64,000 nt of DNA from Minisyncoccia bacterium (GTDB lineage Bacteria; Patescibacteriota; Minisyncoccia; Phycocordibacterales; PALSA-1337), in NCBI GenBank assembly GCA_044234345.1, contig JBIIIW010000001.1, forward strand, positions 1,766-65,765, written 5' to 3'. Both the position numbers and the translations under genes were made by a program. How positions within the stretch are numbered: the first letter of the stretch is position 1; each line of letters opens with the position of its first letter. A model generated the notes under the pieces. It was not told the origin of the DNA, made no database searches, and saw nothing but the letters and a program-made list of their open reading frames with translations. Below, one piece after another: positions 9,970 through 11,217 of this stretch.

Positions 9970-10072
9970 TGGGATAATAATATCAGAATATACGACTTCC
10001 TTAGTCTTGACATTGTGTTATAAAGTGATATGTTATTTGAGATTGCTCTTATAACACTGAATCACTCATAAC

Positions 10073-10339
10073 ATGTTTAGTCCAAATTTTGCGAAATACG
10101 TAGCTCAAATCTACTCAACACGGATCAATGGACTAGCTAGAACCGAATTCCTTACTAAGCTTCGGGATAGGCCACATTTGATTCTCGACAGTCTCTTTAG
10201 GGATCTAATCGTTCTTGTGGATCTATATGTTGTAAATACTGGGGAAACGGTTCAAGTAGTCGACAACCCCGGAGAAATGGCAACATACGTAGATTCCTTC
10301 AGAGAACACTTCAAATCTGAAATTGCCGCTCTTAGCTGA
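10073..10339 (+). CDS. small hypothetical protein, tandem paralog A
   Basis: 88 aa with ...FLTKLRDRPHLIL...YVDSFREHFKSEIAAL. Own TTGACA-type promoter (around 10004) and own terminator. Confidence 0.55.
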   Translation: MFSPNFAKYVAQIYSTRINGLARTEFLTKLRDRPHLILDSLFRDLIVLVDLYVVNTGETVQVVDNPGEMATYVDSFREHFKSEIAALS

Positions 10340-10350
10340 GCTCGGCTTCA

Positions 10351-10378
10351 CGCCACCATCGAACATGGTGGCGTTTTT
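10351..10378 (+). terminator. intrinsic terminator of paralog A
   Basis: cgccaccatcgaacatggtggcg followed by ttttt. Confidence 0.7.
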
Positions 10379-10478
10379 ATATACAAAAAACACCCCAACA
10401 TTGTCCTTGTTACTTCAATTGCTCTTGACTCTAATGTAATTAAGTGATATAAACTTTAGCATACAACAACAAGTTCTT

Positions 10479-10760
10479 ATGACCACAAAACAGATAGCTT
10501 TCAGTATCTCGACATATGTCAGATACAGCATGAACAGTCAAAGAAAAGAAGCATTCCTCGAATCACTTTTAGGTCCTAAACATTTAGCTATAAGAGCGAT
10601 AACAGACGTATTCCATATTCTCTGTAGAGCACACAGATTAAAAACTGGGAAAGAAATGGTTGGTAGGTATAGTCCAACCCTGTTTGAAGATCTATACTCG
10701 GCAGTCATTCTAGAGCTTCAGGATGAAATCTGGAATTTGCCAATTGCATTTGCTGCATAG
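10479..10760 (+). CDS. small hypothetical protein, tandem paralog B
   Basis: 93 aa with FLESLLGPKHLAI... Promoter TTGACT-N17-TATAAA upstream, terminator downstream. Confidence 0.5.
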   Translation: MTTKQIAFSISTYVRYSMNSQRKEAFLESLLGPKHLAIRAITDVFHILCRAHRLKTGKEMVGRYSPTLFEDLYSAVILELQDEIWNLPIAFAA

Positions 10761-10773
10761 ATTGACATACATA

Positions 10774-10798
10774 AAGCGCCTTAACGGGCGCTTTAATC
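10774..10798 (+). terminator. intrinsic terminator of paralog B
   Basis: aagcgccttaacgggcgctt followed by taatctt. Confidence 0.55.
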
Positions 10799-10863
10799 TT
10801 GACGTGATGGTATAGCATGATATGTTATTTTAAACTGCTCCTAAAACATCTAAGCTTAATACC

Positions 10864-11127
10864 ATGTTAGATCAATCGTTTTTGAATTATGTCTCCGAGG
10901 GAGTCTTTGCTACTCTAACGGATAAAGGTAGGAGAGGATTTCTCCTGGCTCTCAGAGATTGCCCTGAAATACTTGTGTGGGGAGTTGAAGAATATCTTCT
11001 CAAATATATCCGCGAGTTTAACGCTGATAATGAAGAACCATGTATCGTTAGGATGGAATACAAAACCTACAAGGAGATCGTTGACCATTACCGGATCCAT
11101 TTTAAGGACCAAATCGATGCTCTATAG
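10864..11127 (+). CDS. small hypothetical protein, tandem paralog C
   Basis: 87 aa with FLLALRDCPEILV...IVDHYRIHFKDQIDAL. Clearly homologous to paralog A. Confidence 0.55.
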   Translation: MLDQSFLNYVSEGVFATLTDKGRRGFLLALRDCPEILVWGVEEYLLKYIREFNADNEEPCIVRMEYKTYKEIVDHYRIHFKDQIDAL

Positions 11128-11135
11128 TAGCTCGG

Positions 11136-11166
11136 TACCACCACTTGTTTTGTTGGTGGTATTTTT
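11136..11166 (+). terminator. intrinsic terminator of paralog C
   Basis: taccaccacttgttttgttggtggta followed by ttttt. A second hairpin at 11176..11195 (aagcgcccgcaaaggcgctt) serves the convergent minus-strand gene. Confidence 0.65.
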
Positions 11167-11217
11167 GTATACAAAAAGCGCCCGCAAAGGCGCTTTTTGC
11201 TACTTCAATCTAGAGTA

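What the first reader, a model, noticed from the sequence alone, without database searches (positions are those of the whole stretch)
9990..11200. Tandem triplication of an ~88-aa gene family, each copy with its own promoter and terminator
ORFs 10073..10339, 10479..10760 and 10864..11127 are clear paralogs. They share the motif FL(T/L/E)xLRDxP(H/E)hIL and a C-terminal YVDSFREHFKSEIAAL / IVDHYRIHFKDQIDAL. Each is preceded by a TTGAC(A/T/G)-N17/18 promoter-like element sharing tcttgac...aagtgatat. Each is followed by its own GC hairpin terminator with similar flanks (tttttatatacaaaaa / tttttgtatacaaaaa). The whole promoter-gene-terminator unit was therefore duplicated. Independently transcribed, rapidly diverging small-protein arrays are typical of immunity proteins, anti-defence proteins or regulatory adaptor families. 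The function is unknown.
Basis: seen in the sequence. Interest (0 to 1): 0.55.

Follow-up and report, generated by a model that had tools for sequence, protein, structure and literature searches.

The report
Strain-variable array of small-protein cassettes
Three self-contained promoter–gene–terminator units encode very divergent members of a rare, uncharacterised five-helix protein family of Patescibacteria; they sit as a strain-variable insertion between two core genes, and what they do is not known.

Summary
The three ORFs exist and each has a promoter-like site and a hairpin terminator. Copies 1 and 3 are clear paralogs (E=6e-8). Copy 2 fails pairwise tests. It is linked to the family through an ortholog in another genome (E=1e-15), which itself matches the family profile (E=1.3e-5), and through an independently predicted identical helix layout. 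An exhaustive search found only 11 other members among 1.84 billion representatives. All seem to come from Patescibacteria-like contigs, and none matches Pfam, NCBIfam, PADLOC, PHROGs, PDB or viral structures.

In about 30 related loci the DUF7282 gene ends 59–115 nt before gltX. The 1,248-nt block here is therefore a lineage-specific antisense insertion. Close relatives carry one copy (L087, flanking proteins 98% identical) or at least two (L090). Against L087, flanking genes have dS 0.05–0.37 but the small gene has saturated dS and dN about 0.6. So old, divergent alleles are shuffled between near-identical promoter and terminator modules; this is not recent positive selection.

The best reading is a moron-like, recombination-prone cassette array encoding acidic binding proteins with a conserved scaffold and variable surface. 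An immunity- or inhibitor-like role is inferred only. Interest is moderate.

The parts
9977..9985 (-). Extended -10 (TGATATTAT) of gltX, 7 nt before its ATG. The start looks leaderless. This is the gltX-side edge of the insertion.
   Evidence: Sequence read. The same flank is present in L087, L090 and L002. Relatives with an empty site have TG(C/T)TATAAT at the equivalent position.
10005..10048 (+). Unit 1 promoter module: -35 TTGACA (10007-10012), TG-extended -10 TATGTT (10029-10034), and the conserved start of the leader.
   Evidence: 10 of 12 consensus matches, with TG. It is 77% identical to unit 3 over 56 nt. These columns are invariant in four A-type units from three genomes. The motif occurs only in A-type cassettes among 118 loci.
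10073..10339 (+). p1, 88 aa, an A-type family member.
   Evidence: AlphaFold pLDDT 93.8, five helices.
10350..10379 (+). Unit 1 intrinsic terminator: a 10-bp GC-rich stem followed by TTTTT.
   Evidence: One search gives -16.6 kcal/mol, z -4.1. It is 96% identical to the terminator region of the L087 unit.
10380..10419 (+). Decayed copy of the resident DUF7282 terminator plus the 3'-UTR piece TTGTTACTTCAAT.
   Evidence: Repeats D2 and D7 at spacing 788-790 nt. Alignment columns 411-456.
10423..10453 (+). Unit 2 promoter module: -35 TTGACT (10425-10430) and TG-extended -10 TATAAA (10448-10453).
   Evidence: It is conserved with the L090 B unit (TGCTCTTGAC...GTGATATAAA).
10479..10760 (+). p2, 93 aa, a B-type (highly diverged) family member.
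   Evidence: AlphaFold pLDDT 87.6, same helix layout as p1.
10772..10795 (+). Unit 2 terminator hairpin, a copy of the resident GCGCC...GGCGC hairpin. It directly abuts the unit 3 -35 element and has a weak U-run.
   Evidence: Repeat D3 at 79% identity. One search gives -14.6 kcal/mol, z -5.4. The junction is identical in L090.
10797..10840 (+). Unit 3 promoter module: -35 TTGACG (10799-10804), TG-extended -10 TATGTT (10821-10826), and the conserved leader start.
10864..11127 (+). p3, 87 aa, an A-type family member.
11134..11168 (+). Unit 3's own terminator hairpin followed by a T-run.
   Evidence: One search gives -13 kcal/mol, z -2.8. The flank TTTTTGTATACAAAAA is shared with unit 1.
11172..11217 (.). 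Resident bidirectional terminator of DUF7282 (hairpin 11172-11199) and the DUF7282 3' UTR. This is the far edge of the insertion.
   Evidence: It folds on both strands, -17.6 and -21.2 kcal/mol. It corresponds to the terminator that precedes the gltX promoter in relatives with an empty site.

Best explanation
Shown: the block 9970-11217 is a lineage-specific insertion in a Patescibacteria (Paceibacteria) chromosome. It lies antisense in the short spacer that otherwise joins the DUF7282 gene to gltX. It consists of three autonomous, monocistronic cassettes. Each has a near-consensus sigma-70-type promoter with an extended -10, a leader of about 30-40 nt without a Shine-Dalgarno sequence, an ORF of 87-93 codons, and a hairpin terminator. 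The ORFs belong to one rare protein family with two subtypes: A (p1, p3) and B (p2). The proteins are compact, soluble, mostly acidic five-helix bundles. The family has no curated annotation and no clear structural relative. Distant members elsewhere are single genes with the same self-contained promoter-leader-ORF-terminator design and no conserved neighbour.

Shown: the array changes by whole units between close strains (1, at least 2, or 3 units). The coding parts are ancient, mutually very divergent alleles. The promoter and terminator modules around them, and the neighbouring genes, are nearly identical.

Inferred: unequal or allelic homologous recombination between the conserved promoter and terminator modules adds, deletes and swaps cassettes.

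Inferred, with low confidence: the proteins are binding modules. The hydrophobic core, the helix-capping RD.PE turn and the C-terminal HF..EI.AL helices are conserved, while helix 3 and the following loop vary. Each variant would neutralise or modulate a different protein partner, in the manner of an immunity or inhibitor protein. Carrying several variants would widen the range covered.
For: Insertion:
- The DUF7282-to-gltX gap is 59-115 nt in about 30 related loci, against 1,248 nt here.
- L002 has the filled-type flank and its contig ends at the junction.

Family:
- p1 and p3 match at E=6e-8.
- The exhaustive HMMER search found 11 further full-length members, E from 3e-17 to 4e-4; the alignment is.
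- p2 is linked.
- There are no curated-family hits.

Autonomous units. The same design appears in distant members, in unrelated contexts.

Unit-wise variation and old alleles:
- L087 has a single gene only 35-38% identical to p1 or p3, although gltX and DUF7282 are 97.7% and 97.6% identical.
- Flanking genes have dS 0.05-0.37. The small gene has dS of at least 3.6 and dN 0.57-0.64.
- Homology to L087 stops at 10039 and resumes at 11154.
- The unit 1 and L087 terminators are 96% identical while the mid-CDS is 41% identical.
- The unit 2/unit 3 junction is identical to the L090 B/A junction.

Scaffold versus surface:
- Mean conservation is 0.48 (aa 1-34), 0.33 (aa 35-72) and 0.63 (aa 73-88).
- Conserved positions 41, 45 and 52 lie on one face of helix 3.
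- pI is mostly 4.5-5.8.
Against: - No expression data exist. Promoter-like hits in the region are not more frequent than in shuffled sequence, so promoter function rests on conservation alone.
- No partner, toxin, effector or recombinase gene lies next to the array, and there is no match to any known immunity or anti-defence family. The functional part is analogy only.
- dS is saturated, so dN/dS values are rough.
- Only three array variants are available. Differential loss from a larger ancestral array cannot be separated from allele import.
- How the first cassette reached this spacer is unknown. No target-site duplication could be recognised in the AT-rich junctions.
Confidence: 0.5

Rival explanations
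1. The cassettes are phage-derived morons or anti-defence genes left in the chromosome by a mobile element. They act against host or competitor defence systems.
For: - Each unit has its own promoter and terminator and is inserted between genes that are adjacent in relatives. This is the moron anatomy described in PMC3594210.
- The distribution is sporadic.
- The proteins are small and acidic.
- Another strain-specific insert (PemK plus a 413-aa ORF) lies 4 kb away.
Against: - There are no phage or mobile-element genes nearby.
- No PHROG hit, no BFVD fold match, no relative in IMG/VR contigs, and none in GenBank phages or plasmids.
- GC content, 0.37-0.405, is the same as the neighbours'.
- All known members lie among housekeeping genes of Patescibacteria-like contigs.
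Confidence: 0.13
2. The proteins are ordinary physiological accessories, such as small regulatory adaptors or stress proteins that bind a conserved cellular machine. The array is simply a recently amplified gene under relaxed constraint.
For: - The promoters are strong and close to the sigma-70 consensus, and the genes are chromosomal single genes in distant members.
- dN is below dS in all comparisons.
- Core motifs are conserved across the family.
Against: - The family is very rare: 13 clusters at 50% identity among 1.84 billion representatives.
- It is absent from most close relatives at the same site.
- Copy number differs between strains whose flanking proteins are 98% identical.
- The surface-exposed centre is at random-level nucleotide identity. 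That is not expected for an adaptor to one conserved partner.
Confidence: 0.2
3. The extreme divergence between strains arose in place through recent, intense positive selection on orthologous genes, not through exchange or sorting of old alleles.
For: - The non-synonymous rate is about ten times that of gltX for the positional orthologs p2 and L090-B.
- Variation is concentrated in one segment of the protein.
Against: - Between the window and L087 the small gene's synonymous sites are saturated (pS 0.74-0.87), while the genes on either side have dS 0.05-0.24.
- Only 13 of 32 conserved residues keep the same codon, against 356 of 413 in gltX.
- dN is below dS throughout.
- Divergence begins and ends abruptly at the promoter and terminator modules.
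Confidence: 0.05
4. The ORFs are not real genes. The units would be small-RNA genes or chance ORFs in an AT-rich spacer.
For: - There is no Shine-Dalgarno sequence before any of the three ORFs.
- The non-coding flanks are better conserved than the ORFs.
Against: - Eleven full-length homologs of the same size exist in other genomes.
- dN is below dS.
- AlphaFold models are confident: pLDDT 93.8 and 87.6.
- The genome as a whole rarely uses Shine-Dalgarno sequences, 7 of 59 long ORFs.
- No Rfam hit reaches threshold.
Confidence: 0.02

Closest known systems
Phage 'morons', independent transcription units inserted between conserved phage genes (PMC3594210)
   Same: Each unit has its own promoter and its own factor-independent terminator. 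The units are an obvious addition between two genes that are adjacent in relatives. Distribution is sporadic and each unit holds a single small gene.
   Different: The array lies in a bacterial chromosome among core genes, not in a phage or prophage. Its GC content does not differ from the surroundings. No relative was found in any viral collection. Here the units form a tandem array of one family.
rAID (recombinase-associated acquired interbacterial defence) orphan immunity arrays of Bacteroidales (PMC12247911)
   Same: [quoted passage not shown] Members are only about 30-40% identical to each other. Content varies between strains. The proteins would be soluble binders.
   Different: No tyrosine recombinase was found, and there is no similarity to SUKH or other known immunity families. 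No effector is known. The genes are shorter (87-93 codons, against about 100-300). Each gene has its own terminator. The phylum (Patescibacteria) is not known to have T6SS.
Immunity-gene arrays left by sequential effector displacement, e.g. Vibrio cholerae T6SS clusters (PMC5361080), and polymorphic-toxin immunity cassettes (PMC3482391)
   Same: Tandem accumulation of divergent small genes of one functional class at one locus, through recombination at conserved flanks.
   Different: Those arrays lie downstream of a toxin or effector gene and its delivery system. Nothing of that kind is present here.
Tandemly repeated type I toxin-antitoxin loci such as ldr, sib/ibs and zor-orz (from general knowledge, not tested)
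   Same: Small autonomous units with conserved promoters, leaders and terminators, repeated in intergenic spacers. Copy number differs between close strains.
   Different: Those encode hydrophobic peptides under 60 aa plus an antisense RNA. These proteins are soluble 88-aa helical bundles, and no antisense RNA element was identified.

Membership tests
Phage moron | Own promoter | tested here: met
   At sequence level only. TTGAC(A/T/G) with a 16-17 nt spacer and a TG-extended -10 lies before each ORF, conserved across units and genomes. No expression data.
Phage moron | Own terminator | tested here: met
   Stable hairpins follow each ORF. Unit 2 has a weak U-run.
Phage moron | Extra DNA between genes that are adjacent in related genomes | tested here: met
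   The gap is 59-115 nt in about 30 related loci, against 1,248 nt here.
Phage moron | Located in a phage or prophage genome | tested here: not met
   The neighbours are gltX, an M23 peptidase, DUF7282, murG, ftsW and scpAB. No viral relatives were found.
Phage moron | [quoted passage not shown] | tested here: not met
   GC is 0.37-0.405 in the array and 0.33-0.40 around it.
rAID orphan immunity array | [quoted passage not shown] | tested here: met
   Three co-oriented ORFs of 87-93 codons. These are shorter than the approximately 100-300 codons given in PMC12247911.
rAID orphan immunity array | Conserved intergenic sequence motifs | tested here: met
   Promoter/leader and terminator modules are 66-96% identical between units.
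rAID orphan immunity array | Associated tyrosine recombinase | tested here: not met
   No recombinase domain in the ORFs scanned on either side, roughly 1-7000 and 15400-21900, or in the genes called on the contig. The rest of the window was not scanned.
rAID orphan immunity array | Genes homologous to known effector-linked immunity proteins | tested here: not met
   No Pfam, NCBIfam or PADLOC hit for any of 13 members. No fold match.
Type II toxin-antitoxin antitoxin | Adjacent, co-transcribed toxin gene | tested here: not met
   Each ORF is monocistronic with its own terminator. The nearest toxin-like gene (PemK, 15424-15813) is more than 4 kb away and is absent from L087, which still has a cassette.
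Any curated protein family (Pfam-A, NCBIfam, PHROGs, PADLOC) | Score above the family's threshold | tested here: not met
   The best hits are below the gathering score and are scattered over unrelated families.
Staphylococcal protein A (SpA) three-helix domain | Domain-length sequence or fold similarity | tested here: not met

The most novel reading that the evidence does not exclude
Patescibacteria may possess a chromosomal cassette system that needs no recombinase. In this reading, conserved promoter and terminator modules serve both as expression signals and as portable homology 'handles'. Ordinary homologous recombination could then insert, amplify, delete and swap members of a pool of very divergent small binding proteins at junctions between core genes. 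This would amount to a bacterial-chromosome counterpart of phage morons, built around a previously undescribed five-helix protein family that provides variable immunity-like specificities for these episymbiotic cells.
Probability: 0.2. Interest if true: 0.65.

Novelty: new variant of a known kind. Interest (0 to 1): 0.45.

Why it matters
Patescibacteria have tiny genomes with very conserved gene order, so places where strains differ are the likeliest record of their interactions with hosts, phages and competitors. This locus shows a clean example. Strains whose neighbouring proteins are 98% identical carry one, two or three cassettes whose products are only 26-40% identical. All are built on one scaffold that is missing from every curated database.

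If the proteins are variable inhibitors or immunity factors, they would point to an antagonism system in this phylum that has not been recognised. If the promoter and terminator modules really guide cassette exchange, that would be a simple way to move genes without dedicated enzymes.

As it stands, the result is a well-delimited, testable orphan family rather than a demonstrated new mechanism.

Tried and rejected
- Pairwise BLASTP and shuffle tests for p2 were not significant. Profile, intermediate-sequence and structure evidence were needed instead.
- The word-indexed search of 5.8 billion proteins returned only self hits for the three-sequence profile. It added nothing for the B subtype beyond the L090 ortholog.
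- Pfam, PHROGs, NCBIfam and PADLOC gave nothing for the window proteins or for any family member.
- The PDB sequence profile gave only a short SpA-like motif.
- Foldseek against PDB and BFVD found nothing. The afdb50 library was not available.
- Rfam found nothing relevant at the gathering threshold or at E up to 1.
- Viral contigs: the full alignment was too diverse to search, and two sub-alignments found no relatives. GenBank phages and plasmids gave no match.
- The metagenome scan anchored on DUF7282 returned only relatives at 76% identity or less, all with empty or unrelated sites, so no further array variants were obtained.
- I looked for target-site duplications at the insertion edges by comparing filled and empty sites. 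The junctions are too AT-rich and too short to call any.
- An inverted repeat pairing the -10 region with the start codon of unit 1 (I3) was rejected as a leader structure. Its 5' arm overlaps the -10 element and would mostly not be transcribed, and the pairing is not conserved in the other units.
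Full report
**1. What is in the sequence**

The region holds three co-oriented ORFs on the + strand: p1 at 10073-10339 (88 aa), p2 at 10479-10760 (93 aa) and p3 at 10864-11127 (87 aa). They lie between gltX (8653-9969, minus strand) and a DUF7282 gene (11218-11724, minus strand). That gene is followed by murG, ftsW and scpB/scpA. The array is therefore divergent from gltX and convergent with DUF7282, not 'downstream of gltX'. The window has 38% GC. Its gltX places it in Patescibacteria, class Paceibacteria, among MAGs labelled Taylorbacteria or Nomurabacteria.

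**2. Are the three ORFs paralogs?**

p1 and p3 certainly are. BLASTP gives E=6e-8 at 26% identity, ungapped end to end. The shuffle z-score is about 11.

p2 is not demonstrably related by pairwise comparison. It scores E=0.065 against p1 and gives no alignment against p3. Shuffle p-values are 0.1-0.17. Three further lines connect it to the family:
- hhalign of p2 against the 13-member family alignment is co-linear over 72 columns, with P=0.0012 for that single comparison.
- A related genome (L090) has a 94-aa ORF that matches p2 at E=1e-15. That ORF is hit by the A-type family HMM at E=1.3e-5.
- AlphaFold models were built from separate alignments. p1 used the 13 A-type sequences (pLDDT 93.8, pTM 0.82). 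p2 used only its L090 ortholog (pLDDT 87.6, pTM 0.80). The helices fall at 4-17/20-32/35-56/66-79/81-86 and at 3-17/20-31/34-56/68-79/81-85.

I conclude there is one superfamily with two subtypes: A (p1, p3) and B (p2).

**3. Regulatory modules**

Units 1 and 3 have TTGACA or TTGACG, a 16-nt spacer and TATGTT preceded by TG. Unit 2 has TTGACT, a 17-nt spacer and TG-A-TATAAA. The number of promoter-like hits in the region is no greater than in shuffled sequence, so the argument rests on conservation:
- The promoter plus early leader is 77% identical over 56 nt between units 1 and 3.
- Its core columns are invariant in four A-type units from three genomes.
- The 13-mer TGATATGTTATTT occurs only in A-type cassettes among 118 loci.

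Each ORF is followed by a stable hairpin, -13 to -17.6 kcal/mol with z -2.8 to -5.4. The hairpin at 11172-11199 folds on both strands (-21.2 kcal/mol on the minus strand) and is the resident DUF7282 terminator.

None of the ORFs has a Shine-Dalgarno sequence. That is normal for this genome: only 7 of 59 long ORFs have one. Many first genes appear leaderless, with TATAAT 7-10 nt before the ATG. The cassettes differ in having a leader of about 30-40 nt.

**4. The block is a lineage-specific insertion**

In about 30 related loci (gltX 39-80% identical), DUF7282 ends 59-115 nt before the gltX start. That gap holds a terminator hairpin followed by TG(C/T)TATAAT. Here the gap is 1,248 nt.

The family is present at this site only in the closest relatives:
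- L087, L088 and L089 have one A-type gene, P0004, in a 462-nt gap. Their gltX is 97.7% and DUF7282 97.6% identical to the window's at the protein level.
- L090 (gltX N-terminus 91% identical) has a B-type gene followed by an A-type gene, P0005.
- L002 (gltX 87% identical) has the filled-type flank, but its contig ends 20 nt upstream of gltX.

The same junction holds unrelated antisense inserts in more distant relatives. L017 carries a DUF3800 gene there, and L013 and L015 carry small unannotated ORFs.

**5. How the array was built and how it changes**

Repeats D1, D2 and D7 are in register at spacings of 788-792 nt. The 3' flank of unit 1 carries a decayed copy of the resident terminator plus the DUF7282 3'-UTR piece TTGYTACTTCAAT. 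Unit 2 ends with another copy of the resident-type hairpin (D3). So duplication occurred in place and included resident sequence. The unit 2/unit 3 junction (GCGCTTTAATCTTGAC) is identical to the B/A junction of L090, which makes a B-A pair ancestral to both genomes.

The comparison with L087 is the most informative:

| Gene | dS | dN |
|---|---|---|
| gltX | 0.24 | 0.011 |
| DUF7282 | 0.05 | 0.013 |
| murG | 0.21 | 0.001 |
| ftsW | 0.37 | 0.04 |
| small gene vs p1 | 3.6 (saturated) | 0.57 |
| small gene vs p3 | not computable (pS 0.87) | 0.64 |

Only 13 of 32 conserved residues in the small gene keep the same codon, against 356 of 413 in gltX. BLASTN homology to L087 stops at 10039, just past the unit 1 -10 element. 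It resumes at 11154, in the unit 3 terminator. The unit 1 and L087 terminators are 96% identical while the mid-CDS is 41% identical.

The coding parts are therefore much older than their flanks. Alleles or paralogs of ancient divergence are being sorted or exchanged between conserved modules. dN is below dS in all comparisons, so the genes are under purifying selection, although saturation makes the ratios rough. For the positional orthologs p2 and L090-B, dN is 0.65, against 0.068 for the adjacent gltX segment. These proteins do evolve about ten times faster than a housekeeping gene.

Recombination between the promoter modules of different units would explain the single-unit state of L087. 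I could not reconstruct the exact order of events.

**6. The protein family**

HMMER against 1.84 billion representatives found 13 members at E up to 0.001, including p1 and p3. They are 86-116 aa long and align over their full length. The 116-aa member (P0010) has a miscalled start, because its 'ATG' lies in the -35 element. No member matches Pfam, NCBIfam or PADLOC. The window proteins do not match PHROGs.

Conserved positions are G20, R23, F26, L27, L30, R31, D32, P34, then V73, F80, E83, I84, A86 and L87. On helix 3, positions 41, 45 and 52 are conserved along one face, and the rest of helix 3 and the 57-65 loop vary. I read RD.PE as a helix-capping turn, which is inference. That would explain the only PDB sequence echo, a 23-residue match to the SpA domain turn.

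Fold searches gave no meaningful relative:
- Foldseek against PDB and BFVD found nothing below E=0.9.
- The afdb50 library was unavailable.

Members are mostly acidic and were called without signal peptides or membrane segments. The helices are amphipathic and GRAVY is near zero.

Distant members are single genes in unrelated housekeeping contexts, often antisense to their neighbours. Each has its own TTGACA-N14-TG.TA promoter, its own leader and its own terminator. No relative was found in viral contigs, phage records or plasmids.

**7. Interpretation**

The anatomy and evolutionary behaviour are well supported. This is a moron-like set of autonomous cassettes, inserted in a core-gene spacer and gained, lost or swapped unit by unit between conserved promoter and terminator modules.

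The function is not established. The closest described analogue in organisation is the rAID orphan-immunity array: co-oriented short genes, conserved intergenic motifs and members about 30% identical (PMC12247911). The defining recombinase and any similarity to immunity families are absent here. The moron definition requires an own promoter and terminator, extra DNA relative to relatives, deviant GC content and a phage genome (PMC3594210). The first three features are met. GC content and phage location are not.

My preferred mechanism is a conserved helical scaffold that presents a variable surface to neutralise or modulate different protein partners. This rests on the conservation pattern, the acidity, the stand-alone expression design and the strain-level turnover. 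I give it roughly one chance in four. The main rival is a physiological adaptor. A phage-derived anti-defence origin is possible but has no positive evidence.

**8. Verdict**

- The duplication inference is right.
- The 'rapid divergence' claim is better described as the shuffling of old, fast-evolving alleles.
- The family is uncharacterised and rare, and the locus is a tidy example of strain-level variation in a streamlined genome.
- Interest is moderate (0.45). Novelty: a new variant of known kinds (moron-like or orphan-array-like cassettes) built on an undescribed protein family.

Noticed in passing
window 15320-17281: A second strain-specific insertion. A PemK/MazF-like toxin gene (15424-15813, minus strand; Pfam E=2e-15) and a 413-aa ORF with no Pfam hit (15995-17236, plus strand) lie between scpA and aspS. 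Both are absent from the near-identical strain L087, where scpA and aspS are 25 nt apart. No antitoxin ORF is evident next to PemK.
   Followed up: partly
window, whole; examples at 9977-9985 (gltX), 43359, 57541, 15302: The genome rarely uses Shine-Dalgarno sequences: 7 of 59 long ORFs have one. Many operon-first genes have TATAAT, often TG-extended, only 7-10 nt before the ATG, which suggests widespread leaderless mRNAs. The three cassettes are exceptions, with leaders of about 30-40 nt.
   Followed up: partly
L017:4785-6000, L013:5435-6000, L015:703-1200, L110 (333-nt gap): The same DUF7282|gltX spacer carries unrelated inserts in more distant Paceibacteria. L017 has an antisense DUF3800 gene (226 aa, E=3.7e-14), L013 a 93-aa ORF, and L015 a Cys-rich 74-aa ORF. 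The junction looks like a recurrent landing site for accessory genes.
   Followed up: partly
L002:1-26: The MAG contig with the second-closest gltX among the genome collection (87%) ends 20 nt upstream of gltX. Its flank is identical to the filled-type junction. The assembly probably broke at a repeated or variable cassette array.
   Followed up: no
L118:55-405 (protein P0010): The called 116-aa product starts at an ATG that lies inside the TTGACA -35 element of the family's promoter. The true start is very likely the internal MDAHF..., which gives a protein of about 94 aa like the other members.
   Followed up: partly
window 20920-21933 (minus strand): A RhuM-family / Fic-DOC domain protein lies about 10 kb from the array. 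No link to the cassettes was found.
   Followed up: no
window 5533-6291 and 10947: The same contig from another sample (L001) differs from the window at 19 positions in 6.8 kb. Eighteen of them cluster in 5533-6291, within or just past the unannotated 366-aa ORF at 4977-6077. One lies at a third codon position of p3.
   Followed up: no
window 10772-10800: The unit 2 terminator hairpin is followed by UUUAAUCUU rather than a clean U-run, and it directly abuts the -35 of unit 3. Some read-through from p2 into p3 is plausible.
   Followed up: no
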